A stretch of DNA of 64,000 bases from Pseudomonadota bacterium (GCA_039180865.1 JBCDCZ010000001.1:5492-69491), one strand, 5' to 3'. Counted from the stretch's first letter, positions 47,017-59,580 are shown. A program made the numbers and translations. The notes: generated by a model from the letters alone, not told the origin.

Positions 47017-50000
47017 TTAAGCAGCAGCCTCTCCCGCCGACGGCTGGGCTTTCACTGAAGATGTGCCCATCAAATCAGCCGCAAGCCGGTTGGCACCGCC
47101 AATGTCGAGTTTACCGGTTCCAAGAAGCGGGATCGCATCGACGCTGAACACGGTCTTTGCCACCATGATCTCGCCGATACCTTTCGACTTTGCGAAAGTG
47201 AGCAATGCCTTTGCGTTAATCGCATCATCGTTGCCCTCACAAAGAAGCACGATCTGTTCGCCCTTCTTTTCGTGCGGCAGGGCCACTGCGCAGCACGGTG
47301 TTTCCGGCCAGAGCTCGTTTGCAAGGCTTTCAACGGCGGTCAGCGAGACCATCTCACCACCGATCTTTGCAAAACGCTTGACGCGCCCTTTGATCGAGAT
47401 GAAGCCCTTGTCATCGATGCTCACGATGTCTCCCGTGTCGTGCCATCCATCGACGGGCGGTTGAATGACGCCAGGATTGTCAACTTTGAGATATCCCATC
47501 ATCACATTCGGCCCGGTGACATGAAGACGACCACCGTCCTCAACACCTGTCACGGGCTCAAGACGCGCTTCCATACCAGGCAGAAGGCGACCCACCGTGC
47601 CCGGCACATTGGCAAGCGGTGTGTTGATGGAAAGGACGGGAGCGGTTTCCGTCGTACCATAACCTTCCAGGACACGCAGACCGAATTTCTCCGACCAGAC
47701 CTGGCGGGTCTCGGGGCGCACGCGCTCAGCACCGGCAAACACATAGCGCAGCGAATAGAAATCGTAAGCATGAGCCATGCGCGCATATCCGCTCAAGAAT
47801 GTGTCCGTGCCGAACATCACGGTCGCGTTCGTATCGTAAGCAATCTCAGGCACGATACGGTAGTGAAGCGGCGACGGATAAAGGAAGGTCGGTACACCAC
47901 TCAGCAGGGGCAGAAGTGTCCCGGCCGTCAAGCCGAAAGAATGGAACATCGGCAATGCGTTCAACACCTTATCTTTCGGTGAGAAGTCAATCACCGACGA
48001 GACCTGATTGCGGTTTGCCTGAATGTTCGCATGGCTCAAAACGACGCCTTTCGGAAGCCCTTCGGAGCCGGATGTGAAGAGTATAACCGCTTTGTCTTCC
48101 GGCTTGGCTGAACCACCAGCCTGCATCCGGAAGGCAAGCTTCGGAAACTTCGCTTTGACGAAGCCGCGAACTTTGTCGAAGGTCGAGATCTCTTCGCGGA
48201 TGTCCTCAAGATAGACGACCTCTGCCATTTCACCGACAGCTTCGATCAGGGCATCGAGCTTTCCAAGGTCCACGAAACGCCGGGATGTGAAGACCGTCTT
48301 GATCTCCGCGGCCGTGATCGCGGCCTGAATGCCAGCGCGTCCTGCGGTAAAGTTCAGCATGGCGGGCGTGAACCCGTAAGCGTGGCATGCAAAGAAGCTC
48401 ACGACGCAGCCGTTCGAATTCGGTAGAAGAAGTCCGACCGTATCGCCAGCCTTTGCATGTTTCGTCATCTTGGCGCCAAGGATGAACGATCCCGCGATAA
48501 TCCGGTCATAGGAAATCGGGGTACGTTCCATATCCTCGAGGACGGCAGGCGTACCAAACGTGGTTTTCGCATCGATCAGGCTTTCAAAAAGCGTGGTCCG
48601 GGGCCGCTTCGTATCGAAGACCATTTGAGCCATCACTTCATGAAGCGCTGAGGCAGCAGCGGCCCGTTTCCTGCGCCCGACGAGACCGTCCGGAATGCTG
48701 ATTTCCTGCTTTTCAAGCACTGTCAGCGTGATCTCGGGAAACCACTTCGTCGGAAGCTTATCGTTCAGATAAGACACCTTCGAGAATTGCGCGCCTTCTA
48801 TATGGATCGGGATCAACGGTGCACCGGCTTTCTCGGCAATCATCGCCGGGCCATCATAGACCTTCATCAGTGCGCCCGTGCGTGTCAGACGTCCTTCAGG
48901 GAAAATGATCAGGCGGCGTTTTTCGTCACGCACCAGTTTCACCATTTTGCGCACGGAAAGCGGGCTCGTCGGATCGACTGTGACGAGATCAAAGAACAGG
49001 AAGGCCGGGCGCACCCACCATGCTTTCGCAATCTGGGTGTTGATCGCAAAGGCCGGACGTCCGGGCAGAAGGCATCCGAGCAGGACCGCATCAAGGTAGG
49101 ATACGTGGTTGGCGATAACGACGGCAGGCGCGTTCGGGTCACCATATCCTTCAAGGTTCTTGACGCGTGCCTTGAAGAGCGTGCGCAGGAGCGACGCACC
49201 GACGGATTTGATGACTTCTGAAGCAAGTTTCACGAATAGGTATCCGGCGAGGACAACCGAAAGAGCAGCAAAGCCGAACAACAAAGCCGGAAACTCGAAC
49301 CCGATCGCAAGCAACGCGGTTGCGGCGAGACTAACGGCAACCATAAGGAGCGAATTTAGAATGTTGCTTCCCGCGATCGCGGTTGAGCGGTTTTCGTCTT
49401 CGGTCACCGTCTGGAAGATCGCATAAAGCGGTACGGTAAAAACTGCCCCAAAGAAGGCAACGGCAACCATATCAAAGAGAATACGAACCCGATCCCAGGA
49501 TGCGAGGAGATCGGTCACACCAACAGCGGAAGCGGGGGGCGTATAGGCTTGCAGTGCGAAACCGAAATCTGCGAGGAACACTGCCATACCAAGGACACCA
49601 AATGGGACGTGCCGAGGTGAGATATCACCTTTCAGGAGCTTTGAGATCGCAAAGGTTCCCAGGCCAATCCCGATGACAAACGCCGCGACGAGGAGGTTTG
49701 CTGCGTTGGCAGTGAGATTGAGCATATCCTTCGCGACGCCCGGAAGCGTGCTGATCACCACAAGACCAATCGCCCAGAACCATGCAATCGCAAGCGTCGT
49801 TTGCAGAAGGGTCCGATTGCTGAGAACCGCTTTGACGGCTGTGATCGAACTCGTCACCGGGTTCTTGGAAAGCGTCGCACCGTCCTTCAGGAATGAAGGG
49901 ATAGACGGCAGTCGCAGGCTCGAAACATAGCTGAGAGCTGAACCGGCGATCAAAAGACCTGCCAACACACCAGTGTGACCGTTGCCGGCGAGATACCCAC

Positions 50001-50493
50001 CGACGAGAAGGCCAAGCAGGATCGCAATGAAAGTCGAGCTTTCGAAGAGTGCGTTGGCTGAAACCAAATGTTTGCGCGCCAACATTTGCGGCAAAATAGA
50101 GTATTTCGCCGGGCCGAAGACCGTCGATTGCACCGCGTAAAGGAAAAGGGTCAACAGGAGCAGAGGGCCTGATTGCGTAAAGAGCGCACCGGTTGCAAGG
50201 ACCGCCAGGCCGATTTCGACAAGACGTGTCCGCTGGACGATCGTTGCTTTGTCGTATTGATCGTTGAGCGCACCTGAGACACCGGAAAACAGGAGAAAGG
50301 GTGCGATATAGATGATCGCCCCAAGCATCAGGGCGATGTCGGTGGAGAGCCCAAAGAGAGACAGTCCGCCGAAAGCCACCAGGAAGGAGAATGCGCTCTT
50401 CAAGGTGTTGTCGGTAAACGCACCCAGGAATTGTGTGATGAAGAGCGGGAAGAACGTTTTGTCTTGGAAGAGTTCGTTACGCGGCAAAAACAT
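47017..50493 (-). CDS. aas: Triple fusion: MFS lysophospholipid transporter (LplT) + PlsC-type acyltransferase + acyl-ACP synthetase (Aas)
   Basis: ORF 47017..50565. The ATG at 50493 follows an AAGGA RBS. About 430 aa of 12-TM MFS, then the HX4D motif (NHVSYLDA), then the AMP-binding motif (ILFTSGSEGLPKGVVLSH). Confidence 0.8.
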   Translation of the reverse strand: MFLPRNELFQDKTFFPLFITQFLGAFTDNTLKSAFSFLVAFGGLSLFGLSTDIALMLGAIIYIAPFLLFSGVSGALNDQYDKATIVQRTRLVEIGLAVLATGALFTQSGPLLLLTLFLYAVQSTVFGPAKYSILPQMLARKHLVSANALFESSTFIAILLGLLVGGYLAGNGHTGVLAGLLIAGSALSYVSSLRLPSIPSFLKDGATLSKNPVTSSITAVKAVLSNRTLLQTTLAIAWFWAIGLVVISTLPGVAKDMLNLTANAANLLVAAFVIGIGLGTFAISKLLKGDISPRHVPFGVLGMAVFLADFGFALQAYTPPASAVGVTDLLASWDRVRILFDMVAVAFFGAVFTVPLYAIFQTVTEDENRSTAIAGSNILNSLLMVAVSLAATALLAIGFEFPALLFGFAALSVVLAGYLFVKLASEVIKSVGASLLRTLFKARVKNLEGYGDPNAPAVVIANHVSYLDAVLLGCLLPGRPAFAINTQIAKAWWVRPAFLFFDLVTVDPTSPLSVRKMVKLVRDEKRRLIIFPEGRLTRTGALMKVYDGPAMIAEKAGAPLIPIHIEGAQFSKVSYLNDKLPTKWFPEITLTVLEKQEISIPDGLVGRRKRAAAASALHEVMAQMVFDTKRPRTTLFESLIDAKTTFGTPAVLEDMERTPISYDRIIAGSFILGAKMTKHAKAGDTVGLLLPNSNGCVVSFFACHAYGFTPAMLNFTAGRAGIQAAITAAEIKTVFTSRRFVDLGKLDALIEAVGEMAEVVYLEDIREEISTFDKVRGFVKAKFPKLAFRMQAGGSAKPEDKAVILFTSGSEGLPKGVVLSHANIQANRNQVSSVIDFSPKDKVLNALPMFHSFGLTAGTLLPLLSGVPTFLYPSPLHYRIVPEIAYDTNATVMFGTDTFLSGYARMAHAYDFYSLRYVFAGAERVRPETRQVWSEKFGLRVLEGYGTTETAPVLSINTPLANVPGTVGRLLPGMEARLEPVTGVEDGGRLHVTGPNVMMGYLKVDNPGVIQPPVDGWHDTGDIVSIDDKGFISIKGRVKRFAKIGGEMVSLTAVESLANELWPETPCCAVALPHEKKGEQIVLLCEGNDDAINAKALLTFAKSKGIGEIMVAKTVFSVDAIPLLGTGKLDIGGANRLAADLMGTSSVKAQPSAGEAAA

Positions 50494-50561
50494 AATCTTT
50501 TCCTTTCGAAAGAAAGGAGGTCGACACTCTTCAATAAAAGAGAATATCGACCTCTTAACTA

Positions 50562-50843
50562 TCAAGCGGCCTCTTTACGGCCAATATCCATCAATAATTT
50601 TTCGGTTTTGGCATCCTCGATCCTATGGACAAGACGTTTAGATTCTTGTTCGTCACGGATCGTTTTTGTGACGGTAATTGCAGACTGAACGATCATAAGT
50701 GTTGCCATGGTTAAAAATCCCTTCGTTGCGAGATCAAGTGGCAAGAAGAAGATGCCAATTCCCATCATCGCCATTGATATTCCGAAGTTTGCGATCGTGA
50801 ATGTTTTCCAGGCTGCTGTATTTTGAATATTTGGTTCGGTCAT
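50562..50843 (-). CDS. YiaA/YiaB-like two-helix inner-membrane protein
   Basis: 93 aa with two TM helices followed by an amphipathic tail. It lies directly downstream of the pspA-like gene. Confidence 0.5.
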   Translation of the reverse strand: MTEPNIQNTAAWKTFTIANFGISMAMMGIGIFFLPLDLATKGFLTMATLMIVQSAITVTKTIRDEQESKRLVHRIEDAKTEKLLMDIGRKEAA

Positions 50844-50877
50844 TTTCGATCTCCGTTACTTGTGTGAGGTGATATTG

Positions 50878-51567
50878 CTATTTTTCAGAAGCAGTTAATC
50901 TTGATTTCAGACGAGCGAGCACATCGTCCGCACTTGTCTTGATCGCCGGACCACACCCGGCTTCGGCGAGTTTTTCAGCGACCTTTTCCGGGTCGACGGA
51001 TTGCGAGAATGTGTTGAGGGCATCCTCGGTCGCATCGATATGTTGCTGACGCGCTCTGAGGCGGTTGAGTGTCTCTTCCGCCTCCACGAGGGTGCTGAGA
51101 CCGGAGCCGGGAACGTCCTGACGAATACGGTGCGCTTTATCCGTCGCCGTTGCGATCCGCTGACCGCGACGCAAGTCCTTAAGACGCGTTTCAGCCGTCA
51201 GAACGTTTGTCCGCAGGCGCTGAATTTCTTTGGAAAAAGTGGCTTGCGCTTCTTCGCTGTCTTTATGCTCGGTCTCAAGGGTTGCGATCGTCTCTGCCGC
51301 TTCCTGAGCAAGATCAGACTTGTTGGTTTCCAACGCAGCAATCGCTCGTGTCTCCAGATCTTCGATCTGTTTACGCAGGCGTTCGCAGTGCGCTTTTTCC
51401 TGTTCGTTATGGGCGATCGCGACCGCAACAGCCTTGCGCGCGGCTTCTACGGCTTTCGCCCCATCGCGCATTTGCTGTTGAAGAATGAGCAGCGCATGTC
51501 GGTCGGTGATCTCTTCGGCGGCGTTATGACTGGCCGCTCGAAATAGCGTGAATAATTGTTTGAACAT
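50878..51567 (-). CDS. pspA: PspA/IM30-family protein
   Basis: ORF 50878..51591. The ATG at 51567 follows a GGAG RBS. The N-terminus MFKQLFTLFRA and the all-coiled-coil composition are typical of PspA/IM30. Confidence 0.75.
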   Translation of the reverse strand: MFKQLFTLFRAASHNAAEEITDRHALLILQQQMRDGAKAVEAARKAVAVAIAHNEQEKAHCERLRKQIEDLETRAIAALETNKSDLAQEAAETIATLETEHKDSEEAQATFSKEIQRLRTNVLTAETRLKDLRRGQRIATATDKAHRIRQDVPGSGLSTLVEAEETLNRLRARQQHIDATEDALNTFSQSVDPEKVAEKLAEAGCGPAIKTSADDVLARLKSRLTASEK

Positions 51568-51583
51568 TGCCGATACTCCATTT

Positions 51584-51598
51584 GTGAACATTGTTCAC
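51584..51598. promoter_or_regulatory. Palindromic operator GTGAACATTGTTCAC (copy 1)
   Basis: Perfect 7-1-7 inverted repeat in the pspA / tetR divergent region. Confidence 0.55.
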
Positions 51599-51638
51599 GA
51601 TTGAATTTACGCAAATCCTCGCTATAGTCAAGAATAAA

Positions 51639-51653
51639 ATGAACATTGTTCAC
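51639..51653. promoter_or_regulatory. Palindromic operator ATGAACATTGTTCAC (copy 2)
   Basis: A second copy lies 55 bp from the first. 16 of 17 nt are identical when the flanking GA is included. Confidence 0.55.
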
Positions 51654-51672
51654 GAAATGGAGGCGTTGGTTA

Positions 51673-52254
51673 ATGGCAGGAAAACGGGAAGCGCTTCGGC
51701 AGGATCTGACAAACCGTCTCATCGAAGCGGCCACAAACAGGATCACCACGTCCGGACTGAACGCGCTACGGGCACGGCAGATAGCGGAAGATGCGAAGTG
51801 TGCTCTTGGAACGATCTACAAGTGCTTTGCCGATTTCGACGACCTGATATTGCACGTGAATTCAAGAACGCTGGCCGCCCTTGGCGCAGCGCTCAAAAAA
51901 GCAATGTCCGAAAGTGGTGAAGGCGAAACACCGCTAGAGGTGTTAGCTGTCGCTTATATGCGCTTTGCGAAGGAGAACACGCATCTTTGGGCCGCGCTCT
52001 TCGAACATCGGATGCCGCAGAATGTGCCCGTTCCCGATTGGCATCTCGAAGAGCACGGCGCCTTATTTGATGACCTCTCGAGCATCATTTCCGGAAGCGC
52101 AGAGGGACTATCAGAAGAAGAGGCGAATGTGCGTGCCCGCACTTATTTCTCGGCAATCCACGGCATAGTCTCAATCAGCCTCCAGGACCGTTTTGTCGGT
52201 GTCCCTTTGGAAAGGCTGGAAAACGAAGTGCGCACATTTGCACGCGCGCTTTGA
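51673..52254 (+). CDS. TetR-family transcriptional regulator
   Basis: ORF 51646..52254. The ATG at 51673 follows a GGAGG RBS. N-terminal HTH: LRARQIAEDAKCALGTIYKCFADFDDLI. Confidence 0.8.
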   Translation: MAGKREALRQDLTNRLIEAATNRITTSGLNALRARQIAEDAKCALGTIYKCFADFDDLILHVNSRTLAALGAALKKAMSESGEGETPLEVLAVAYMRFAKENTHLWAALFEHRMPQNVPVPDWHLEEHGALFDDLSSIISGSAEGLSEEEANVRARTYFSAIHGIVSISLQDRFVGVPLERLENEVRTFARAL

Positions 52255-52295: not shown

Positions 52296-53945
52296 ATGTC
52301 ACCCATCAAGCGAAGCCTCCTTGCGGTTGCATTCATCATCGTTCTCGCAGCAAGCGCCGCATGGTTCTTTTCAGTCCACGAAACCCCATCGCTCACCAGA
52401 GCAAACAATATTGACGCGCTCGAAGGACCGGCCCGTGGCGGGGCAGTCTTTGAAGGCGCTGCCTTTGGCGGCATCAGCATGACGGCCCTTGAAACCCATG
52501 CTGTTCCATGGCGGCTTGTCGCAGCGGCTCTCGTTCTTGATGAGAATGCGCGCAATCCAGACGCCGAGGTTTCACAAGAAACACTCAATAGCATTCTTGC
52601 GCAGTTTGGCTTTCTGGTTGGGGCGACGCCCGTTAATCGGCCCGCCATTGTCTCACCATCGGAGAGCATCCTTCCACTTGGATTCACATACGGAAATCTC
52701 TCTCCGATCGGTGGGGCAAACATCTTGGCAGCCAATCTTGGATGTGCCGCCTGCCATGCCGGGGTTACTTATGATGAAAATGGTCGACCGCAACCGGATC
52801 GTGCCTGGCTGGGCATGCCGAACACATCGATCAATCTTGAAGCCTATGTCGCGTCGGTTTTCGAAGTGCTGGTCAGGCGAACGGAAGACACGGAAAAGCT
52901 CCTTATCACCGTTGGCGATCTCTTCCCGGAAATGGATGTCCGTGAAGCCCTCACCCTTCGATTCTTTGTCCTGCCGATCGTCAAAGATCGGCTTGCAGAA
53001 CTATCGGAGGTGCGGGCACCCCTGCCCTTTCCGAATGGCGTTCCAGGAAGCACGAATGGTGTAGCGGCCCTCAAATGGGCGTTGGGAACACCGCTTCTTG
53101 GCGACGGCCCTGACGATAACGGTATCGTATCGATCCCCGATCTCGGCCACCGGTCATGGCGGACAAGCCTCCTCGCAGACGGCGCTTATGCCCCTGTTGG
53201 AAAGAACCGCCAGCGTCCCATAGACAAAGAAGAAGTGACCAAAGGCCATCTTAACGATCTTGCAGCGATTACGACATTCTTCACGGTGCCAAGCATGGGC
53301 GTGGACTCCGGCACGGCGATTAATCATCTCGACAAGGCAACGGCGATTTTCGACTTTATCGAAAACGCTTACGCGCCGCAGGCATTTCCGGGTCCAATCG
53401 ATAAACTGGCTGCACAACGAGGTGCCCGTAGCTACAGCGAGACCTGTTCGGAATGCCACGGCACCTACGAATGGCAGGGCGAACAACCGATCCTTACGCT
53501 TTTCCCAAACTGGCTAGGTGATGTCGGAACCGATCCGCTACGCGCGCAGGCTTTCACTCCGAAACTGGCAGATGCGATTGGAAAAACATCGCACAAGGAC
53601 GTCCTGAGCGCCGTCTCAACCGGCAAATACGCAGCACCGCCGCTTACCGGTATCTGGGCTTCCGCGCCTTACCTTCACAACGGGTCGATTCCGACTATTC
53701 AAACGCTCCTCAACCCGAACCTTCGAACTACCCGCTTTCAGGTCGGCGGTCATGCAATCGACTTTCAACATCTTGGGATCGCACTTCAGACAAACGGCGC
53801 TTATCCGGATGGCTACGAGCCGTTTTCAGACCCTATCTGGTTTGACACGTCAATTGCGGGCTTTGGCAACGATGGTCATAAGTTCGGAAGCGATTTGAGT
53901 GACGATGAAAAACGCGATCTCATCGAATTCCTGAAGCTCTTGTAA
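52296..53945 (+). CDS. Exported di-haem c-type cytochrome (cytochrome c peroxidase/MauG-superfamily-like)
   Basis: 549 aa with an N-terminal signal-anchor, two CxxCH motifs (CAACH, CSECH) and an APYLHNGSIPT segment typical of di-haem peroxidase-like proteins. Confidence 0.6.
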   Translation: MSPIKRSLLAVAFIIVLAASAAWFFSVHETPSLTRANNIDALEGPARGGAVFEGAAFGGISMTALETHAVPWRLVAAALVLDENARNPDAEVSQETLNSILAQFGFLVGATPVNRPAIVSPSESILPLGFTYGNLSPIGGANILAANLGCAACHAGVTYDENGRPQPDRAWLGMPNTSINLEAYVASVFEVLVRRTEDTEKLLITVGDLFPEMDVREALTLRFFVLPIVKDRLAELSEVRAPLPFPNGVPGSTNGVAALKWALGTPLLGDGPDDNGIVSIPDLGHRSWRTSLLADGAYAPVGKNRQRPIDKEEVTKGHLNDLAAITTFFTVPSMGVDSGTAINHLDKATAIFDFIENAYAPQAFPGPIDKLAAQRGARSYSETCSECHGTYEWQGEQPILTLFPNWLGDVGTDPLRAQAFTPKLADAIGKTSHKDVLSAVSTGKYAAPPLTGIWASAPYLHNGSIPTIQTLLNPNLRTTRFQVGGHAIDFQHLGIALQTNGAYPDGYEPFSDPIWFDTSIAGFGNDGHKFGSDLSDDEKRDLIEFLKLL

Positions 53946-53951
53946 TCTGCT

Positions 53952-54956
53952 TCACACAGCATCCGATATGATGATGTGCTCGAGGGGCAGGCGCGCCCTC
54001 GCCGTGGTTTTATGTTTTGCTGCATGACTTACGAGCGGCTTTCCGAAAACGAAGGCTGTCAGGAGTTTTCGGTCGGAGGAAAGGCCCGCCTTTTTGTGAA
54101 GGACCGCACACGTTTCGGTGTCGTCGGTCAGCGCTGCCACGACCTGCGAAGAAAAACCTGCCTTTTCGATTTCGAGCCAATGGCGATAAAAGTGCCTGCC
54201 GCTATCAAGCGGTGTTTCCTCGACTGGTCTATGCACAAGAAGGAAACCAGCAGCGCGGGAATATCGCTTCGCCTCCGATACTAAAAAACCGGCGAGCCCA
54301 AGCTTGTGCAAGACGCCGAAGGTGCTGCCAAGGACGATGGAAGCTGCAAGGGCTTCAAATCCGCTCATATGCATTGCTTTGGCATTGAGACCATCGCGGG
54401 ACCAATGCGGATGAACGGGTTTAAACCGCATCCATGAGACCAGCTCTTCCCGAAAATCAGCATCGGCCATAAATCTCAGGCTCGCGTCATCGGCGAGGCA
54501 ACCAATCTGCCGGACGTTGTCTTCACGCGCAAAGACTGTGCAGGACGAACCGCCGATTGAAACAGCCCGCTCACGATCTACATCCGTCGCCGTTTCAAAT
54601 GGCCCGCGCCAGGAACGGCGGCTTTCGATAAAAGCTGCGAGATCGTCAGCCTCGCCACCGGAGCTAAAGTGCAAGGCGCCAAGGCGTTGATACGCGCCGC
54701 TCTCTGTAAGAGTCGTTTCAGTCTCAAATCGCGTCGAGAACCCTTGTCGCGACGCCGCAATCGCGGCGCCCTCGAGACAAGCGCCAACGCTGATCATCAC
54801 ATCGCGGTCAGTCGGGTCGCCATGCGGAAGGCGAACGCTTCGGTCCCGCATGAGGATAAGGCGGTCATTATCAAACGCCCAACGAACCGGCTGTATGTTG
54901 TGAACGCTCGGTGCAAGACTGGCTTCCGCAACAATCGAGTTGAGATCGGGTTTCAT
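53952..54956 (-). CDS. Two-domain nitroreductase-fold (Acg-like) flavoprotein
   Basis: ORF 53952..55049. The ATG at 54956 lies 1 nt after the upstream stop codon (TGAGATG). APSVHNIQPVRW motif. Confidence 0.6.
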   Translation of the reverse strand: MKPDLNSIVAEASLAPSVHNIQPVRWAFDNDRLILMRDRSVRLPHGDPTDRDVMISVGACLEGAAIAASRQGFSTRFETETTLTESGAYQRLGALHFSSGGEADDLAAFIESRRSWRGPFETATDVDRERAVSIGGSSCTVFAREDNVRQIGCLADDASLRFMADADFREELVSWMRFKPVHPHWSRDGLNAKAMHMSGFEALAASIVLGSTFGVLHKLGLAGFLVSEAKRYSRAAGFLLVHRPVEETPLDSGRHFYRHWLEIEKAGFSSQVVAALTDDTETCAVLHKKAGLSSDRKLLTAFVFGKPLVSHAAKHKTTARARLPLEHIIISDAV

Positions 54957-54957
54957 C

Positions 54958-56046
54958 TCACAGCGCCTTTTTGAAGAGGTGCAGCCGATGAAGTGGCTTC
55001 GCACCAAGTTTTTCCGCCTGGCGAAGGCTTGCCGCATTGATATCAGCAATCCACGTTAAACCGAGCTCCCGATACCCGGCGTTACGCAGCGCTTGAAGGG
55101 TGTGATCAAGCATCGCTCCCATAATGCCAAGTCCATGGCATTTTCGAGCCACCGAATAAAAAATGATCACCGCCCGCTTCCGGTTCAGCCGATAGCGCAA
55201 AAAGTGAAAGGGTGTCAGAAGACCGAAACGGGATTTCGTTGACCGTAAAAATCCATTGAGATCAGGGATGCAGATTACGACACCAACGGGCTCGTTGTCG
55301 CACAGAAGAACACTGGACAACCGCGGATCCAGGATCGTCATCATCTCGCCAGCCTGAAAGACAAAGTCCTCGTTCGACAAGGCGACAAACATCGGATTGT
55401 CGGCGAACCCGTCATTGAGCACGAGCCGCGCATCTTCCATACGCGCCGGAAAGCTTTTCTTTTCAATGGGCGCAAACGAATAAGAGGCGTCCGATGGCAA
55501 TGTCTTTCCGGTAGGCATCGCGGACGCAAGATCAAGCGCGAACGTTGTCATCGGGAAGTATGCTTCAAACCCGTTCGCTTCCAGAAGGCGCGGAATATGC
55601 GCGGGGTTTTGCACCATATCCGTGAAGCCCTGACGGTTGAAACCGTCGGTCTGAACACCGCATTGCTGCATCGCCGTCAGATTGAAATTCCCGCAAAGCA
55701 TGTCGAAACCGCGCGCCCTCGCCCATTGGGATGCCGCCTCGAGCAAAGCCCCTGCGACCTCTCCATTGTCTTCGCAATCGAAGAAACCGAAGCTTGCCTG
55801 ATTGGTCTTGTACAAAGCGTTCGAGGCCGCATGATTGTGGACCACGATCCGGCCCGTCGGACGACCGTTTCTAATAGCCGTAAAATACGTGAAATTCTCG
55901 TCGGATGGGAAAAGCGGGTTCACACCCGATGAAAGCATGCGCTTAAGGTCTGACCGCATCGGCGAGACATAGGGCTCGCTTGAAGGATAAGCGGCGAACG
56001 GAACCTCAAAGAAGTCGTCAAAAGTTCGCTCTCTGATTTCGACCAT
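54958..56046 (-). CDS. GNAT-like acyltransferase, ~360-aa two-lobed type
   Basis: 362 aa. The C-terminal acetyl-CoA-binding-type motif is RKCHGLGIMGAMLDHTLQALRNAGY. The start overlaps the upstream stop codon (TGATG). Confidence 0.55.
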   Translation of the reverse strand: MVEIRERTFDDFFEVPFAAYPSSEPYVSPMRSDLKRMLSSGVNPLFPSDENFTYFTAIRNGRPTGRIVVHNHAASNALYKTNQASFGFFDCEDNGEVAGALLEAASQWARARGFDMLCGNFNLTAMQQCGVQTDGFNRQGFTDMVQNPAHIPRLLEANGFEAYFPMTTFALDLASAMPTGKTLPSDASYSFAPIEKKSFPARMEDARLVLNDGFADNPMFVALSNEDFVFQAGEMMTILDPRLSSVLLCDNEPVGVVICIPDLNGFLRSTKSRFGLLTPFHFLRYRLNRKRAVIIFYSVARKCHGLGIMGAMLDHTLQALRNAGYRELGLTWIADINAASLRQAEKLGAKPLHRLHLFKKAL

Positions 56047-57239
56047 CAGACAGCCTCCGCCTTCGACATGATGTGAGACAGGCGCTGAACGACCGCGAGT
56101 TCGAGTTCAGCCCCGGGCGCATTTGCAATCGATGGCAGACTCAAAAGAACGATCCTCAGCGGATCTTCAGAGGCAAGCATCGCATGGGTTGCACCATACC
56201 GTTCGAAGAGCCAGGCAAGCTCCTCGTCGAGCAGTTCCTCTTTTAGATCAGTTCGATCCCCAGCCCTGAGGATCCTTTTGGTTTTCAAATGCGTTTTGAG
56301 ACCCGCGCCGAAGTCATCAAGATCTGCTTCCTCAAGAATGAGTGCGCCGGAGACCAACGGATGATCCTGAAGCCCGGTTAAAAATTCAATATGAGACTGC
56401 GGCGATGAATTTGCGATGTATGAGAGGAGGGTCGCCCGCTCCCCTTCCCGTTGCAAGGACCGCGCTTCTGTGAAGACCTGAAGGAGGAGCCCGGTACAAA
56501 GAATAATCGCCGCCGCCTGAACGGATTGTGTGAAGCTCAGGTCGGCCAGAAAGGAGATCGCACTCACCGCGACACAGACACTGACCGCGATGAGAGCAAA
56601 GTTCCCGAGAATATGAAACGTGTTGGTGCGAAGCCGATCAACGCTGAGCGACAACCAGCACAGAAACAGGATCGCGACCCCAGAAAGACGGGCAGGTGAG
56701 TCGATCAGCGCGCTTCTGAAATCGGTGATCGCAAACGGAATAATGAGAAGAAGCGACCAGGCAAGCCGGTCGATAATGCGGTTCTCCGCCGTGGTGAGAT
56801 CTGAGCGATCCCGGCCAATCACCCAGACCCCGATCAGGATAATCGAAACGATCTGGAAGGCGAGAAGACCTTGCCAGGGAATCGGACCATCAAACAGCGG
56901 CGCAAACGGTGCGAAAAGAATGAAAACCGCCACACCGGCTACGATACCGATTTTCAAGAGATGATGCGCATGGCGGCGCATCAGACCTTCGCAGAGGATA
57001 AGCATGGCAAGCGGTATAAGCGCTGCTGCGATCACGTTGATCACGACAAAATGGGCGTAACCGGTTGTCCAGAAAAACACGCGCGATGCGAGCATGGCGA
57101 CGAGGACGGAAATCGCAAAACTATAGCGCTGTGCTATCCACGGCATCCGGCTCGAACGCTTGATGCTCAAGCGGAGGATGAGCAAACCCGCAATCGCTGC
57201 AATAGAGACAAAACTGTCCGCAACCAGCGTCGCACCCAT
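56046..57239 (-). CDS. Polytopic membrane protein with a ~130-aa cytoplasmic C-terminal domain, unknown function
   Basis: 397 aa, roughly 8 predicted TM helices by eye. No recognisable motif. Confidence 0.55.
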   Translation of the reverse strand: MGATLVADSFVSIAAIAGLLILRLSIKRSSRMPWIAQRYSFAISVLVAMLASRVFFWTTGYAHFVVINVIAAALIPLAMLILCEGLMRRHAHHLLKIGIVAGVAVFILFAPFAPLFDGPIPWQGLLAFQIVSIILIGVWVIGRDRSDLTTAENRIIDRLAWSLLLIIPFAITDFRSALIDSPARLSGVAILFLCWLSLSVDRLRTNTFHILGNFALIAVSVCVAVSAISFLADLSFTQSVQAAAIILCTGLLLQVFTEARSLQREGERATLLSYIANSSPQSHIEFLTGLQDHPLVSGALILEEADLDDFGAGLKTHLKTKRILRAGDRTDLKEELLDEELAWLFERYGATHAMLASEDPLRIVLLSLPSIANAPGAELELAVVQRLSHIMSKAEAV

Positions 57240-57242
57240 TGC

Positions 57243-58118
57243 TCAGCCCGCCATCATATTTTTCAGGAAACGGCGGACAAGAGGACGTGCGATCGCCGCA
57301 AGGACAGCATTTTGCGGTCGCTCGACGCGCCCCTTATAGGGATTGAAGAACCACCCGCGATAATCGGCACCGTGGTGTCTCCCGAGAATGCCGTTAATTG
57401 CTTCATAAGCCATCAGCATACCAGTGGTCAGCACCATCGGCGCAAACGACATACGACTGCGTTTTCCAGCCGCCACCTCGCCTGCGAGATCAAGATCGAT
57501 GTAGTGACGCGATGAGGAATGCAGGATCACGTATTCGGCTTCACGCAGGAACGCTTCGCTCCGTTTCTCGTCATCCAACCGGTTCCACTCAGTGCCGAGC
57601 GTCGGGTAATTGAGCCGCTCTTCAGGGGACGGGTCGGTCGGGCCCGTTACATAGATTGAGGGGAGCGGCGAGGCATAGGCATCGATCACGGCCTTCTTCA
57701 AATTGCGCGCAGTCCGGTAGAGAAGGAGCGATGCCCCGAGATCGTCGGTTCCATTGACAACAATAGCACTCTGATCGATCGCGGCACTGACATGATCAGG
57801 CCATTCGGAGCGAAAAACCGTGATCTCGATGTCGGGGTTGATCGTGCGACAGATCTCGGCCGTTGCTTCCGCCTTATGCTTGCCAATCGTCTCGGCGAAA
57901 GCAAATGCCTGACGATTGAGATTCGAGACTTCGAATTCGTCGATATCAGCAAGGATCAAATGGCCGATTCCGGCACGGGCGAGCGCAAAAACACTGGCAC
58001 CGCCCATACCCCCGGTCCCGCATACGAAAACACAGGAATTGCGAAGGGTTTGCTGTTCGGTCTCAGTGACAAAACCCAGATTTCGTGTCGTGAATTCTTC
58101 ATAGGTGAATGCAGTCAT
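57243..58118 (-). CDS. ThiF/MoeB/HesA-family E1-like adenylyltransferase
   Basis: 291 aa. Nucleotide-binding motif VCGTGGMGGASVFALARAGIGHLILADIDEFEVSNLNRQ. No CxxC zinc or rhodanese module. Confidence 0.8.
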   Translation of the reverse strand: MTAFTYEEFTTRNLGFVTETEQQTLRNSCVFVCGTGGMGGASVFALARAGIGHLILADIDEFEVSNLNRQAFAFAETIGKHKAEATAEICRTINPDIEITVFRSEWPDHVSAAIDQSAIVVNGTDDLGASLLLYRTARNLKKAVIDAYASPLPSIYVTGPTDPSPEERLNYPTLGTEWNRLDDEKRSEAFLREAEYVILHSSSRHYIDLDLAGEVAAGKRSRMSFAPMVLTTGMLMAYEAINGILGRHHGADYRGWFFNPYKGRVERPQNAVLAAIARPLVRRFLKNMMAG

Positions 58119-59065
58119 GAGAGGCGCCCCCGCAGATCGCCCCAGGATCGGGAGGCGTCAAACCAATAGACAATGGGAAGTGCGACACGCTGCAGGAAAA
58201 CGAAAGCGCCCGCAAAGAGCAAGGTCAGAAATGAACCGGGCGGGACGGATTTCTGTAAATACGTCCGTGCCGCATTGAGATCGATTTCACCAAGCTGCAG
58301 CACGTCATCGCCACGATCATAATCAAGGGTATCTTCGCAAAACCGGTTGTAGATCTCGTCTCTGTGTTTCTGGGCTTCATTGAAGCTTTTTTTCAAATCA
58401 TCCGATCCGCCGGTATAGGCATTGGTGATCACGAAACGATCCTCATCAAATCCAGCATCGGAGCCGACACCGAACACATGACGGTGATCGCGCATGATAC
58501 GCCTTGCCAGAAGAAGATGCGTCAGGCTGAGCCGATTGCGGCACTCCGGCATCGGATAAACATTCGAGAACGTCTCAGAGACCATTCCAACAACAGCGGG
58601 CACCTGGGTGACATTGGATACCCAGACCGGGCGAAACCCGTTACGCACGAAGATCAGGATGCAGGTTAAACCATAAAGGACCCAGGAAAGCCCGCGCGAA
58701 CGCACATTCGGATCGACCATAACCAGGCCGAGGTGCAGCACGGTTTTCGGTTCCTGCCCGTACTCGACCTCCATGACAGCAAGAGCATTGAAGGCGATGG
58801 GCTGACCGGTTTCGCGATCACGAACAAGCGTAATGACGGTTCGCTCCAGCGCTTCCTGATCTTCGGAGAAGACGCCGTAGGTTAAAGCGCCCCGTGCGAT
58901 CGTTTTCGACGCGACATCAATGAGATCTTTCCGCAGGGCCGCAAGATCCTCTTCATCCATCCAGAGGGCTGGCCGCTCGAGAATCCGCGTTTCAAACCCG
59001 TCCGAGGTATTGAAGCGAAGATCCATGTGATCTTTGGATAGGGATTGTCTCAACGCAGCAAACAT
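58115..59065 (-). CDS. Hypothetical protein, possibly acyl-CoA N-acyltransferase-like
   Basis: 316 aa. VMVDPNVRSRGLSWVLYGL resembles the GNAT R/Q-x-x-G-x-G/A loop. ATGA overlap with the ThiF-like gene. Confidence 0.4.
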   Translation of the reverse strand: MFAALRQSLSKDHMDLRFNTSDGFETRILERPALWMDEEDLAALRKDLIDVASKTIARGALTYGVFSEDQEALERTVITLVRDRETGQPIAFNALAVMEVEYGQEPKTVLHLGLVMVDPNVRSRGLSWVLYGLTCILIFVRNGFRPVWVSNVTQVPAVVGMVSETFSNVYPMPECRNRLSLTHLLLARRIMRDHRHVFGVGSDAGFDEDRFVITNAYTGGSDDLKKSFNEAQKHRDEIYNRFCEDTLDYDRGDDVLQLGEIDLNAARTYLQKSVPPGSFLTLLFAGAFVFLQRVALPIVYWFDASRSWGDLRGRLS

Positions 59066-59110
59066 TTGTCTGGTTTAAAAGAGTTTTGTTGCGGATCGGT
59101 AAAATTGACT

Positions 59111-59128
59111 TTGCCGGATTACCGGCAA
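59111..59128. promoter_or_regulatory. Perfect inverted repeat TTGCCGG-ATTA-CCGGCAA in a divergent promoter region
   Basis: It lies 46-63 bp upstream of the start at 59065 and 78-95 bp upstream of the VOC gene. Confidence 0.35.
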
Positions 59129-59205
59129 ACGCAGCCCGGTCCTAATCAGCATATTGCAGACCAAACCCGGGCGCCGATAGTGTCTGACGAGCGGCAATAT
59201 AAGAA

Positions 59206-59580
59206 ATGGAGGTCAGAGTGGAAAAAGTGACAGGCATTGGTGGCGTTTTCTTCAAATCGAAAGACCCTGAAGTCCTCGCAAAGTGGTACGAAGAAACGCT
59301 CGGCGTCGACATTCAAGGAACGATCTGGACGCAGTCGGCTGGCCCGACGGTCTTCATGCCATTTGCCAAGGATACCGACTACTTTGATCGGCCGGAACAA
59401 CAATGGATGATCAATTTCCGCGTAGCCAACCTTGATGCCATGATTGCTCAACTGGACGCGCGCGGCATCGACGTCATCACCAATCCGGAATGGGATTCTG
59501 TTGCCGGGAGATTCGCGCGAATCCATGACCCCGAGGGCAATCCGATCGAACTATGGGAACCAGCGCAGCCAGCTCCGTGA
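59206..59580 (+). CDS. VOC (glyoxalase/bleomycin-resistance/dioxygenase) family protein
   Basis: 124 aa with typical ends (VTGIGGVFFKSKDP ... FARIHDPEGNPIELWEP). Confidence 0.75.
   Translation: MEVRVEKVTGIGGVFFKSKDPEVLAKWYEETLGVDIQGTIWTQSAGPTVFMPFAKDTDYFDRPEQQWMINFRVANLDAMIAQLDARGIDVITNPEWDSVAGRFARIHDPEGNPIELWEPAQPAP

What the first reader, a model, noticed from the sequence alone, without database searches (positions are those of the whole stretch)
53952..59128. Translationally coupled 5-gene operon of unknown function: GNAT-like / ThiF-E1 / membrane protein / GNAT / Acg-type nitroreductase
Five minus-strand genes are chained by overlapping or abutting stop and start codons: ATGA at 58115..58118, a 3-nt gap at 57240..57242, TGATG at 56044..56048 and TGAGATG at 54954..54960. 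This implies stoichiometric co-expression. The operon combines an adenylating E1-like enzyme lacking Cys/zinc or rhodanese modules, two acyltransferase-like proteins, a two-domain flavin nitroreductase fold and an 8-TM protein with a soluble tail. E1-like adenylation paired with flavin dehydrogenases and GNATs is reminiscent of peptide or nucleotide-peptide natural-product pathways (MccB/MccE-like, PaaA-like, TOMM SagB-like). However, no YcaO gene or obvious precursor-peptide gene is visible. A perfect palindrome TTGCCGGATTACCGGCAA (59111..59128) sits in its promoter region. I do not recognise this gene combination as a described system.
Basis: inference. Interest (0 to 1): 0.6.

Follow-up and report, generated by a model that had tools for sequence, protein, structure and literature searches.

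The report
Oxazolone-type lipoamino-acid operon variant
This five-gene operon, conserved in hundreds of marine and soil Alphaproteobacteria, most likely makes a fatty-acyl amino acid and converts it into a dehydro/oxazolone lipid, but it uses an unannotated acyltransferase family and a seven-helix membrane partner that the described pathways lack.

Summary
The five minus-strand genes and their stop/start junctions are real. The same order and coupling recur in other species: 37 of the 80 best-matching genomes have all five genes confidently called, out of at least 590 with a gene-1 relative.

An acyltransferase, a ThiF-like cyclase and a nitroreductase-superfamily flavin oxidase (FDO) form the acyl-oxazolone / N-acyl-dehydro-amino-acid pathway (OxzAB, TyzACB, TrzAS; 2021-2025).

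This operon is a divergent variant of that pathway:
- **Acyltransferase slot:** it holds a 316-aa protein with no Pfam match. Its model has a GNAT fold and a C-terminal membrane helix. Distant relatives are fused to an OlsA-like lipid O-acyltransferase.
- **Invariant partner (78/80):** a 7-8-helix protein whose model resembles 7TM receptors.
- **Add-ons:** ThiF and FDO (about 60/80) and the 362-aa GNAT (43/80).
- **ThiF:** it keeps all adenylation residues but forms its own clade.

In 19-22 of the 80 loci the cluster adjoins a TetR-PspA-YiaAB-LplT/Aas membrane-stress module or a di-haem cytochrome c.

The "perfect palindrome" is an 8+4+8 inverted repeat, conserved only within the genus. I found no precursor peptide or YcaO. 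The product is unknown.

This scan has already reported the same operon family on other DNA, with the same reading.

The parts
58115..59065 (-). Gene 1 (316 aa): membrane-anchored GNAT-fold acyltransferase of an unannotated family. It is the proposed N-acyl amino acid (lipoamino-acid) synthase and a core gene of the cluster.
   Evidence: - No Pfam, NCBIfam or PDB sequence hit.
- AF2 model pLDDT 82. GNAT fold: Foldseek NatD 2e-6; VIA Z 10-11, with AHL synthases RpaI 9.8 and LasI 9.1 among many GNATs.
- Strand 105-117, a DPNVRSRGLS loop, then helix 127-141 give a motif-A-like R-x-x-G-x-S.
- C-terminal helix 276-302.
- More than 2600 homologues, all 'hypothetical'.
- It occupies the slot directly upstream of ThiF with a 4-nt overlap.
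- Distant members are fused to an OlsA-like O-acyltransferase.
57243..58118 (-). Gene 2 (291 aa): ThiF/E1-like adenylating enzyme, the proposed ATP-dependent cyclase that activates a carboxylate.
   Evidence: - PF00899 3.4e-34.
- Best NCBIfam is NF006077/PRK08223 at 118 bits (cut-off 266, N-terminal half only). NF006077 is the family of the ThiFs next to NAS and FDO genes in canonical clusters, which score 336-448 bits.
- Invariant G34-x-G-G-x-G39, D60, R69-Q70, K82 and D125.
- It shares the N-terminal F-x-Y...R-N-I-G...E-Q signature with PRK08223 proteins but not with MoeB.
- No CxxC or rhodanese.
- Present in 63/80 loci.
56046..57239 (-). Gene 3 (397 aa): 7-8-helix membrane protein with a C-terminal alpha/beta domain. 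It is the invariant partner of gene 1. Its role is unknown (receptor-like, export or scaffold).
   Evidence: - No Pfam or NCBIfam hit.
- AF2 model pLDDT 85.
- The top 50 VIA matches are nearly all 7TM receptors or GPCR-like folds, Z 11.5-14.8, within the range where helical bundles can match by arrangement alone.
- Atlas structural neighbours are HisKA_7TM+GAF sensor proteins, TM 0.64.
- 2/26 family members hit 7TMR-DISM_7TM weakly.
- Conserved cytosolic-face motif E84-G-x-x-R-R-H-A91.
- Present in 78/80 loci.
54958..56046 (-). Gene 4 (362 aa): two-lobed GNAT family N-acyl/acetyl-transferase, an accessory gene.
   Evidence: - PF00583 8e-9 on residues 243-348.
- Belongs to a widespread family of about 370-aa GNATs with no characterised member.
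- No PDB sequence match.
- Present in 43/80 loci, always between genes 3 and 5.
53952..54956 (-). Gene 5 (334 aa): tandem nitroreductase-fold flavin-dependent oxidase (FDO), the proposed C-alpha/C-beta desaturase.
   Evidence: - NF047509 Acg family 7e-41 (141 bits, cut-off 199).
- It also matches the FDO halves of Rv1355c/TrzS (1.9e-13) and PRK14851 (1.2e-12).
- Acg structure 2ymv 3e-4.
- It shares invariant P16-S-x-x-N20-x-Q22-P, R113, R117 and R322 with FDOs of canonical NAS-ThiF-FDO clusters.
- Present in 60/80 loci.
59110..59129 (.). Inverted repeat TTTGCCGG-TAAT-CCGGCAAA, 45 nt upstream of the gene 1 ATG, in the 140-bp divergent region shared with a glyoxalase/VOC gene. It may be an operator or a leader hairpin.
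   Evidence: Read directly. 8-bp arms with a 4-nt spacer. Also scored as a terminator-like hairpin on the minus strand, downstream of a promoter-like site at 59224-59196. Conserved only in the same-genus genome L002.
52296..53945 (+). RoxA-like di-haem cytochrome c (549 aa), convergent, ending 6 nt from gene 5. It is a candidate accessory oxidase, and its membership in the system is uncertain.
   Evidence: PF21419 2e-19. A homologue sits convergently just after gene 5 in 22/80 loci and in Pacificoceanicola onchidii.

Best explanation
The operon encodes a membrane-associated pathway for a modified lipoamino acid. It is a divergent version of the acyl-oxazolone / N-acyl-dehydro-amino-acid pathway (Oxz/Tyz/Trz type).

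Proposed steps (all inferred; no product has been observed):
1. Gene 1 is a GNAT-fold acyltransferase held at the inner membrane by its C-terminal helix. It transfers a fatty acyl group from acyl-CoA or acyl-ACP to the amino group of an amino acid.
2. Gene 2 (ThiF-like) uses ATP to adenylate the free carboxylate. The amide oxygen then closes a 5(4H)-oxazolone ring.
3. Gene 5 is an FMN-dependent oxidase with a tandem nitroreductase fold. It desaturates the C-alpha/C-beta bond.
4. Gene 4, present in about half of the clusters, adds or exchanges a second acyl or acetyl group.
5. Gene 3, the invariant 7TM partner of gene 1, handles the lipid in the membrane (export, presentation or sensing).

What is shown: the genes, their coupling, their co-occurrence, the folds and the conserved catalytic residues.

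Genes 1 and 3 form the ancestral core, since 16-17 of the 80 genomes carry only these two. ThiF with FDO, and then the extra GNAT, are tailoring add-ons. The frequent adjacency to a TetR-PspA-YiaAB-LplT/Aas module suggests a role in envelope or membrane-lipid stress.
For: 1. Literature precedent. N-acyltransferase, ThiF-like cyclase and FDO make acyl-oxazolones or N-acyl-dehydrotyrosines in Pseudoalteromonas, Mycobacterium, Rhodococcus, Thalassotalea, Massilia and Stieleria. The genes are split or fused there in different ways.

2. Link between genes 2 and 5. Both match the two halves of the characterised fusion TrzS/Rv1355c (NF005901) and of PRK14851.

3. Canonical clusters fetched here from other Pseudomonadota (NAS PF13444, ThiF NF006077, FDO) show the same layout. 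Gene 2's best NCBIfam is that same NF006077, and it shares that family's N-terminal signature, which MoeB lacks. Gene 5 shares the invariant FMN-site residues of those FDOs.

4. Gene 1 has a GNAT fold with a motif-A-like loop and sits exactly where the NAS sits, overlapping ThiF by 4 nt.

5. Distant gene-1 relatives (P0212, P0280) carry an N-terminal OlsA-like lyso-ornithine-lipid O-acyltransferase domain (NF052552, 1e-24). That is the architecture of the aminolipid synthase OlsF, which has an O-acyltransferase N-terminus and an amino-acid N-acyltransferase C-terminus.

6. Co-occurrence in the 80 best-matching species genomes:
- g3 in 78.
- ThiF in 63.
- FDO in 60.
- GNAT in 43.
- The order is fixed and the coupling conserved.
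- A few database proteins join g1 to ThiF or g1 to g3.

7. Lipid and envelope context. TetR/PspA, YiaAB or LplT-PlsC-Aas lie within 10 kb in 17-19 of the 80 loci each. In Bosea, PspA, YiaAB and LplT/Aas lie co-directionally just upstream, with LplT/Aas ending about 33 nt before g1.
Against: - Gene 1 shows no sequence-profile similarity to PF13444/FeeM-type NAS enzymes (hhalign probability 0.4). Its fold match is to GNATs in general, not specifically to NAS or AHL synthases.
- Gene 2 scores below the NF006077 cut-off, and only its Rossmann half aligns. In a tree it forms its own clade and is not nested among oxazolone-cluster ThiFs. Its divergent C-terminal half could mean another substrate or another outcome of adenylation.
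- Gene 5 scores higher with the Acg-type model than with the TrzS FDO half.
- Sixteen or seventeen genomes keep genes 1 and 3 without ThiF or FDO, so the primary product need not be an oxazolone.
- The roles of genes 3 and 4 are guesses.
- No metabolite, transcript or mutant data exist for any member.
Confidence: 0.55

Rival explanations
1. Bulk membrane aminolipid synthesis. Gene 1 is an OlsB/OlsF-C-terminal analogue that makes a lyso-aminolipid. A second acyltransferase (gene 4 or an unlinked OlsA/PlsC) completes an acyloxyacyl lipid. ThiF and FDO only tailor the head group in some lineages. The purpose would be membrane remodelling under stress rather than a diffusible metabolite.
For: - OlsA-like fusions of the gene-1 domain and the OlsF architecture.
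- A core of genes 1 and 3 without ThiF or FDO in 16-17 genomes.
- Adjacency to PspA/YiaAB/LplT-Aas.
- The membrane anchor of gene 1.
Against: - No O-acyltransferase of the PlsC type lies in the operon.
- Gene 4 is a GNAT (an N-acyl type) and is absent from the two-gene loci.
- A ThiF/FDO pair is known only from oxazolone/dehydro pathways.
- Homology of gene 1 to the OlsF C-terminal domain itself was not tested.
Confidence: 0.2
2. Signal and receptor pair. Gene 1 (with the tailoring enzymes) makes an N-acyl amino acid or oxazolone signal. Gene 3, a 7TM receptor-like protein with a GAF-like cytosolic domain, is its dedicated sensor.
For: - The gene 3 model superposes on 7TM receptors (Z up to 14.8) and on HisKA_7TM+GAF sensor proteins.
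- The g1-g3 pairing is near-invariant.
- As a lead only, earlier notes of this scan report a 7TM sensor kinase travelling with CPR oxazolone cassettes.
Against: - Gene 3 has no output domain.
- No longer relatives with kinase or GGDEF domains were found by sequence.
- Pfam 7TM-sensor hits are marginal.
- Z values in this range can arise from helical-bundle geometry alone (note).
- Conservation is concentrated in cytosolic loops of the TM domain, not in the C-terminal domain. That fits an enzyme or transporter as well as a sensor.
Confidence: 0.12
3. Peptide or protein modification (RiPP-like or ubiquitin-like). ThiF adenylates the C-terminus or a side chain of a peptide or protein, and the GNATs and flavoenzyme tailor it.
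For: - Most characterised ThiF-like enzymes act on protein, peptide or tRNA carboxylates.
- PaaA and MccB appear among PDB sequence hits, at 1e-9 to 1e-8.
Against: - No YcaO, Ubl/ThiS-like, JAB or E2 gene lies in or next to the operon in the loci examined.
- The only small ORF in the 140-bp leader is a 40-aa TTG ORF that overlaps the inverted repeat. The inverted repeat it overlaps recurs only in the same-genus genome; conservation of the ORF itself was not tested.
- PDB hits to ThiF, MoeB and TcdA are stronger (5e-14) and cover only the Rossmann half.
Confidence: 0.05

Closest known systems
TyzA/TyzB/TyzC of Mycobacterium tuberculosis (Rv2336, Rv2338c, Rv2337c): N-acyl tyrazolone pathway (PMC10404671)
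   Same: - Separate genes for an acyltransferase of about 320 aa with no Pfam family and a GNAT/AHL-synthase-like fold, a stand-alone ThiF-like cyclase and a stand-alone FDO of about 340-370 aa.
- A lipid-type product linked to stress resistance.
   Different: - Gene 1 could not be compared with TyzA here.
- The ThiF is a separate clade.
- This operon adds a 7TM protein between ThiF and FDO and, in half the cases, a second GNAT.
- All five genes here are translationally coupled, whereas tyzA is divergent from tyzBC.
- The system is alphaproteobacterial, not actinobacterial.
OxzA/OxzB of Pseudoalteromonas rubra and TrzA/TrzS (Rv1356c/Rv1355c) of mycobacteria and Rhodococcus (bioRxiv 10.1101/2020.06.11.147165; PMC12856293)
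   Same: An N-acyltransferase gene lies immediately upstream of the ThiF and FDO functions. Genes 2 and 5 match the two halves of the Rv1355c family model.
   Different: - There ThiF and FDO are one polypeptide. Here they are split and separated by two genes.
- OxzA-type NAS enzymes are PF13444/FeeM-like, whereas gene 1 shows no similarity to them.
- The scores to NF005901 are weak (about 47-50 bits against a cut-off of 476).
Split NAS-ThiF(PRK08223)-FDO clusters of other Pseudomonadota (as in the thalassotalic and kyonggic acid producers, PMC12479983; examples fetched here as L104 and L106)
   Same: Three separate, tightly packed genes in the order acyltransferase, ThiF, FDO. The ThiF N-terminal signature and the FDO flavin-site residues are shared.
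   Different: - Those ThiFs pass the NF006077 cut-off (336-448 bits), while gene 2 scores 118 bits.
- Their NAS is PF13444.
- They have no 7TM partner and no second GNAT.
OlsF-type bifunctional aminolipid synthases (PMC12971839)
   Same: Distant gene-1 relatives (P0212, P0280; 572-580 aa) have an OlsA-like O-acyltransferase N-terminus followed by the gene-1-like domain. That mirrors the O-acyltransferase plus N-acyltransferase layout of OlsF.
   Different: - Gene 1 in the window is stand-alone.
- Direct homology to the OlsF C-terminal domain was not tested.
- Those fusion proteins gave no PF13444 hit.

Membership tests
Acyl-oxazolone / N-acyl-dehydro-amino-acid clusters (Oxz/Tyz/Trz type) | An amino-acid N-acyltransferase (NAS) gene adjacent to the ThiF gene | tested here: inconclusive
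   A GNAT-fold protein (gene 1) occupies the slot, with a 4-nt overlap. It has no Pfam hit and no profile similarity to PF13444/FeeM NAS enzymes from canonical clusters (hhalign probability 0.4). Comparison with TyzA was not possible because no sequence was at hand.
Acyl-oxazolone / N-acyl-dehydro-amino-acid clusters (Oxz/Tyz/Trz type) | A ThiF-like cyclase of the clade that holds OxzB, TyzB and TrzS, approximated here by the NCBIfam models NF006077 (PRK08223), PRK14851 and Rv1355c | tested here: inconclusive
   The best NCBIfam is NF006077 at 118 bits, below the 266 cut-off and covering the N-terminal half only. Canonical-cluster ThiFs score 336-448 bits. The N-terminal signature is shared with them and not with MoeB. 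In the tree the gene-2 family is its own clade and is not nested.
Acyl-oxazolone / N-acyl-dehydro-amino-acid clusters (Oxz/Tyz/Trz type) | A flavin-dependent oxidase of the nitroreductase superfamily (tandem fold) fused to or clustered with the ThiF | tested here: met
   - NF047509 7e-41, plus the FDO halves of NF005901 (1.9e-13) and NF011424 (1.2e-12).
- Conserved P-S-x-x-N-x-Q-P, R113, R117 and R322, shared with cluster FDOs.
- Co-located with ThiF in about 59 of the 63 loci that have ThiF.
- The score is below the subfamily cut-off of 199.
Acyl-oxazolone / N-acyl-dehydro-amino-acid clusters (Oxz/Tyz/Trz type) | The product is an N-acyl oxazolone or N-acyl dehydro-amino acid | not testable with these tools
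   Needs expression and LC-MS.
ThiF/MoeB/E1 superfamily (PF00899) | Rossmann adenylation domain with a Gly-rich loop, Arg/Gln, Lys and the Mg-binding Asp | tested here: met
   PF00899 at 118.5 bits against a cut-off of 28.1. G34-x-G-G-x-G39, D60, R69-Q70, K82 and D125 are invariant.
Housekeeping ThiF / MoeB / TcdA equivalogs | Score above the equivalog cut-off, in a sulfur-carrier or tRNA context | tested here: not met
   - ThiF NF006395: 90.9 against 159.
- MoeB NF004281: 85.7 against 266.
- TcdA: 60.5 against 304.
- A separate MoeB-type gene exists on contig C253.
- The neighbours are fixed and unrelated to ThiS/MoaD.
GNAT (acyl-CoA N-acyltransferase) superfamily, for gene 1 | GNAT fold with a beta4-loop-alpha3 acyl-CoA pyrophosphate-binding motif | tested here: met
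   Foldseek NatD 2e-6. VIA Z 10-11 over about 150-177 residues. The model has strand 105-117, an R122-x-x-G125-x-S127 loop and helix 127-141. This rests on fold and motif only; there is no sequence-family hit.
RiPP systems with E1-like enzymes (MccB, PaaA) or TOMM (SagB/YcaO) | A precursor peptide gene and, for TOMM, a YcaO cyclodehydratase | tested here: not met
   No YcaO or other RiPP gene in the operon or its neighbours. There is only a 40-aa TTG ORF in the leader, overlapping the inverted repeat; its conservation was not tested.
Bacterial 7TM sensor modules (HisKA_7TM / 7TMR-DISM), for gene 3 | Sequence membership in PF16927 or PF07695, and an attached output domain | tested here: inconclusive
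   - Structural resemblance only: Atlas TM 0.64 to HisKA_7TM+GAF proteins and VIA Z up to 14.8 to 7TM receptors.
- Pfam hits are marginal (PF07695, 0.0066, in 2 of 26 members).
- There is no output domain.

The most novel reading that the evidence does not exclude
The invariant pair of gene 1 and gene 3 could be a previously unrecognised two-component lipid module. A new family of membrane-anchored amino-acid N-acyltransferases would be coupled to a bacterial 7TM, GPCR-like protein that binds, flips or senses the lipoamino acid. ThiF and FDO would convert that lipid into a reactive oxazolone under membrane stress. If gene 3 is a true receptor for an N-acyl amino acid or oxazolone, this would be a bacterial counterpart of N-acyl-amide/GPCR signalling. 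It would also give the unexplained oxazolone lipids a physiological role.
Probability: 0.15. Interest if true: 0.8.

Novelty: new variant of a known kind. Interest (0 to 1): 0.55.

Why it matters
Acyl-oxazolones and N-acyl dehydro-amino acids were recognised as bacterial products only in 2021-2025, and their physiological role is still unknown.

This operon would extend that chemistry to hundreds of marine roseobacters, rhizobia and relatives, including a Rhizobium plasmid. It does so with a different, unannotated acyltransferase family and a fixed 7TM membrane partner.

Its recurrent linkage to a TetR-PspA-YiaAB-LplT/Aas membrane-stress module gives a concrete, testable hypothesis for what such lipids are for. 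It also assigns a probable function to two large 'hypothetical protein' families; the gene-1 family alone has more than 2600 database members.

Several carriers are cultivable (Ruegeria, Mesorhizobium, Bosea, Roseibium, Yoonia), so the idea can be tested directly.

Tried and rejected
- **Sequence searches of the PDB.** Gene 1 and gene 4, as single sequences and as profiles, gave nothing meaningful.
- **Profile-profile comparisons.** Gene 1 against canonical NAS, gene 4 against NAS, and gene 1 against gene 4 showed no similarity.
- **ThiF tree.** It did not resolve whether the gene-2 family is sister to the PRK08223 clade. There were long branches and low support.
- **Complex prediction of gene 3 with gene 1.** No verdict (score 0.18, below the mark). 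This is not evidence either way.
- **Longer relatives of gene 3 carrying output domains.** None found among the candidates scored, which is weak evidence.
- **Foldseek search of the PDB with the gene 3 model.** Nothing at E <= 0.001.
- **RNA evidence.** No RNA holder is listed for this stretch. The only holder is one marine metagenome run, probably the source sample. I did not lay reads.
- **The inverted repeat as a family-wide operator.** Rejected: it is absent upstream of the operon in other genera.
- **A precursor peptide in 59066-59205.** Rejected: only a 40-aa TTG ORF lies there, overlapping the repeat.
- **Housekeeping ThiF/TcdA orthology.** Rejected.
- **Two other FDO-like genes in the genome** (contigs C123 and C25). 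They lie next to an RND transporter fragment and a DUF1638 gene, not next to ThiF or acyltransferases, so I did not pursue them.
- **Comparison with TyzA, OxzA, OlsF and GlsB.** Not possible, because no reference sequence was available through the tools.

Full report
**Observation**

The region holds five minus-strand ORFs:

| Gene | Coordinates | Length |
|---|---|---|
| g1 | 58115-59065 | 316 aa |
| g2 | 57243-58118 | 291 aa |
| g3 | 56046-57239 | 397 aa |
| g4 | 54958-56046 | 362 aa |
| g5 | 53952-54956 | 334 aa from the ATG |

- Base composition is uniform with the flanks.
- The upstream gene (59206-59580, plus strand) is a divergent glyoxalase/VOC gene.
- Downstream, a RoxA-like di-haem cytochrome c (52296-53945, plus strand) converges on g5 with 6 nt between the two stop codons.
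- The 'perfect palindrome' is really TTTGCCGG-TAAT-CCGGCAAA at 59110-59129, with 8-bp arms and a non-palindromic 4-nt spacer.
- It also scores as a hairpin downstream of a promoter-like site.
- It recurs only in the one other species of the same genus, not upstream of the operon elsewhere.

**What the proteins are**

- **g2** is a ThiF-family protein (PF00899, 3e-34). It falls far below the cut-offs of every housekeeping equivalog (ThiF, MoeB, TcdA, MoeZ).
  - Its best NCBIfam is NF006077/PRK08223, at 118 bits against a cut-off of 266, and only its N-terminal half aligns.
- **g5** matches three models only: the Acg-family FMN oxidoreductase model (7e-41) and the C-terminal halves of the Rv1355c family and of PRK14851.
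  - g2 matches the N-terminal halves of the latter two. So g2 and g5 correspond to the two domains of known ThiF-nitroreductase fusion proteins.
- **g4** has a C-terminal GNAT domain (PF00583, 8e-9). It belongs to a widespread, uncharacterised family of about 370-aa GNATs.
- **g1 and g3** have no Pfam or NCBIfam match.

**Literature**

A full-text search showed that this enzyme trio is a described pathway.

- OxzA is an N-acyltransferase and OxzB a ThiF-nitroreductase fusion. Together they make N-acyl tyrosine-derived oxazolones in Pseudoalteromonas rubra (10.1101/2020.06.11.147165; reviewed in PMC12596934).
[quoted passage not shown] They make C12-tyrazolone (PMC10404671).
- TrzA and TrzS (Rv1355c) make N-acyl tryptazolones (PMC12856293).

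**Conservation**

- g1 has more than 2600 database homologues, all 'hypothetical' and mostly alphaproteobacterial.
- Among 41 relatives of this genome, only the same genus has it. Yet at least 590 species genomes encode a relative, so the distribution is patchy. One copy lies on a Rhizobium plasmid.
- In the 80 best loci, tblastn found g3 in 78, ThiF in 63, FDO in 60 and the g4 GNAT in 43, always in the same order.
- Confidently called architectures are 1-2-3-4-5 (37 loci), 1-2-3-5 (16) and 1-3 (16). Overlapping or abutting junctions occur almost everywhere.
- So g1 and g3 are the core, ThiF with FDO is an add-on, and g4 is a further add-on.
- A few database proteins join g1 to ThiF (P0127, P0129) or g1 to g3 (P0126, P0130, P0197, P0251). 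Because the genes overlap by 4 nt, some of these may be frameshift artefacts. I count them as weak support.

**Gene 1**

- The AF2 model (pLDDT 82) has a GNAT fold. Foldseek gives NatD at 2e-6. VIA gives Z of 10-11 to many GNATs, with the AHL synthases RpaI (9.8) and LasI (9.1) among them but not standing out.
- The loop DPNVRSRGLS lies between strand 105-117 and helix 127-141. It sits where GNAT motif A binds the acyl-CoA pyrophosphate, and G125 and S127 are (nearly) invariant.
- Helix 276-302 is a hydrophobic C-terminal anchor.
- A profile comparison with PF13444/FeeM-type NAS proteins, taken from canonical clusters that I fetched, found nothing. g1 is therefore a separate family.
- An exhaustive profile search found 530 representative clusters.
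- Two distant members, P0212 (572 aa) and P0280 (580 aa), carry an N-terminal domain that matches lyso-ornithine-lipid O-acyltransferase OlsA (1e-24) ahead of the g1-like domain.
- That is the layout of OlsF, whose C-terminal domain N-acylates the amino acid and whose N-terminal domain O-acylates the product (PMC12971839).
- This fusion is independent support for g1 as an amino-acid N-acyltransferase of lipid metabolism. Red-algal homologues also exist.

**Genes 2 and 5 against canonical clusters**

- A scan of 401 Pseudomonadota genomes with the PRK14851 model found ten with strong hits.
- Two of them (L104, L106) show the classical order: a PF13444 NAS of 266 or 273 aa, then ThiF, then FDO.
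- The ThiFs in the six regions fetched pass NF006077 (336-448 bits), and the three FDOs hit the same three NCBIfam models as g5.
- In an alignment, the g2 family shares the PRK08223 N-terminal signature (F-x-Y ... R-N-I-G ... E-Q), which the genome's own MoeB lacks. It keeps every adenylation residue, but its C-terminal half is different.
- A maximum-likelihood tree puts the g2 family in its own clade and does not nest it in PRK08223. There were long-branch warnings, so clade membership stays open.
- g5 shares the invariant flavin-site residues of the cluster FDOs.

**Gene 3**

- The model (pLDDT 85) is a 7-8-helix bundle followed by an alpha/beta domain at 283-397.
- The 50 best VIA matches are nearly all 7TM receptors or GPCR-like folds, Z 11.5-14.8. 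The tool's own note warns that helical bundles can reach this range by geometry alone.
- The ESM Atlas model's structural neighbours are HisKA_7TM+GAF sensor proteins (TM 0.64).
- Pfam support is marginal, and no longer relatives with output domains were found.
- Conservation is concentrated in cytosolic-face motifs of the membrane domain, such as E84-G-x-x-R-R-H-A91.
- Its role (sensor, exporter, scaffold or enzyme) is open. A complex prediction with g1 gave no verdict.

**Context**

- In the window, the operon is followed by the di-haem cytochrome, a TetR gene, PspA, YiaAB and an LplT-PlsC-Aas fusion (47017-52254).
- The same genes lie within 10 kb of the cluster in other families:
  - TetR/PspA in 19 of 80 loci.
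  - YiaAB in 19.
  - LplT-PlsC-Aas in 17.
  - The cytochrome in 22.
  - These loci come from Mesorhizobium, Bradyrhizobium, Bosea, Ensifer/Rhizobium, Ruegeria and Mesobacterium.
- In Bosea, PspA, YiaAB and LplT/Aas lie co-directionally just upstream, with LplT/Aas ending about 33 nt before g1.
- This recurrent linkage points to envelope or membrane-lipid stress.

**Interpretation**

- The best-supported reading is a membrane-associated lipoamino-acid pathway that works like the Oxz/Tyz/Trz systems. g1 N-acylates an amino acid, g2 adenylates the carboxylate and closes the oxazolone, and g5 desaturates.
- g4 would be an optional second acyl/acetyl-transferase and g3 the membrane partner.
- What is shown: gene structure, coupling, co-occurrence, folds and conserved residues. 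The chemistry is inferred.
- The operon fails or leaves open two membership tests (NAS family and ThiF clade). I therefore file it as a new variant that probably works like the known pathway, not as a member of it.
- Rivals are a bulk aminolipid pathway, a signal-receptor pair, and peptide modification, which is the weakest.

**Earlier notes of this scan**

After I had reached this reading, look-ups showed that the same operon family had already been reported on other DNA with the same interpretation (e1-2319654, e1-4171053). Fused or extended variants include a di-haem cytochrome (e1-1425308, e1-4368661). CPR oxazolone cassettes are reported to travel with a 7TM sensor kinase. These are unchecked AI notes and not independent evidence. 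They agree with what I tested here.

**Source**

The only sequencing run that holds the stretch is a marine metagenome. The genome has 449 contigs, so it may be a metagenome-assembled draft.

Noticed in passing
window 47017-52254: A TetR gene (51646-52254, +) is divergent from PspA (50878-51591, -), YiaAB (50562-50843, -) and an LplT-PlsC-Aas fusion of 1182 aa (47017-50565, -). The same module lies next to the g1 cluster in Mesorhizobium, Bradyrhizobium, Bosea, Ensifer, Rhizobium, Ruegeria and Mesobacterium. In Bosea it is co-directional with the cluster and directly upstream of g1.
   Followed up: partly
window 52296-53945: A RoxA-like di-haem cytochrome c (PF21419) is convergent on gene 5, with 6 nt between the stop codons. 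A homologue holds the same position in 22 of 80 loci, so it may be a functional accessory of the cluster.
   Followed up: partly
window 59206-59580: A glyoxalase/VOC-family gene (124 aa) is divergent from the operon and shares its 140-bp control region. A homologue near the cluster was seen in only 1 of 80 loci, so the pairing looks local.
   Followed up: partly
P0257/P0291, P0244, P0233: The gene-1 family has eukaryotic relatives in red algae (Cyanidioschyzon merolae CMI080C, Cyanidium caldarium, Hildenbrandia rubra). They are 360-507 aa with N-terminal extensions of unknown nature.
   Followed up: no
L110 4017-5759 (metagenome contig): P0280 is an OlsA-like domain joined to a g1-like domain (580 aa). 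It lies beside a 483-aa unknown, an esterase, a small nitroreductase and PlsB. It may be a third type of bifunctional aminolipid synthase, distinct from OlsF by its N-acyltransferase domain.
   Followed up: partly
G000 contigs C123:5822-6631 and C25:16963-17862 (L008, L009): The genome holds two further Acg/FDO-type tandem nitroreductases (384 and 381 aa). One follows an RND transporter gene and the other follows a DUF1638 gene. Neither is near a ThiF or an acyltransferase.
   Followed up: partly
L013, L016, L022, about 36-38 nt upstream of g1: In Roseibium and a Rhizobiaceae MAG, a different inverted repeat (CTGAA-N-TTCAG) lies just upstream of g1. It may be a lineage-specific operator, unrelated to the repeat in the window.
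   Followed up: no
PMC11580390 (literature): Roseobacters make N-acyl alanine methyl esters whose synthase gene is unknown ('no candidate genes ... found'). The g1 family is common in Roseobacteraceae and could be tested as a candidate. I did not check whether Roseovarius tolerans EL-164 carries it.
   Followed up: no
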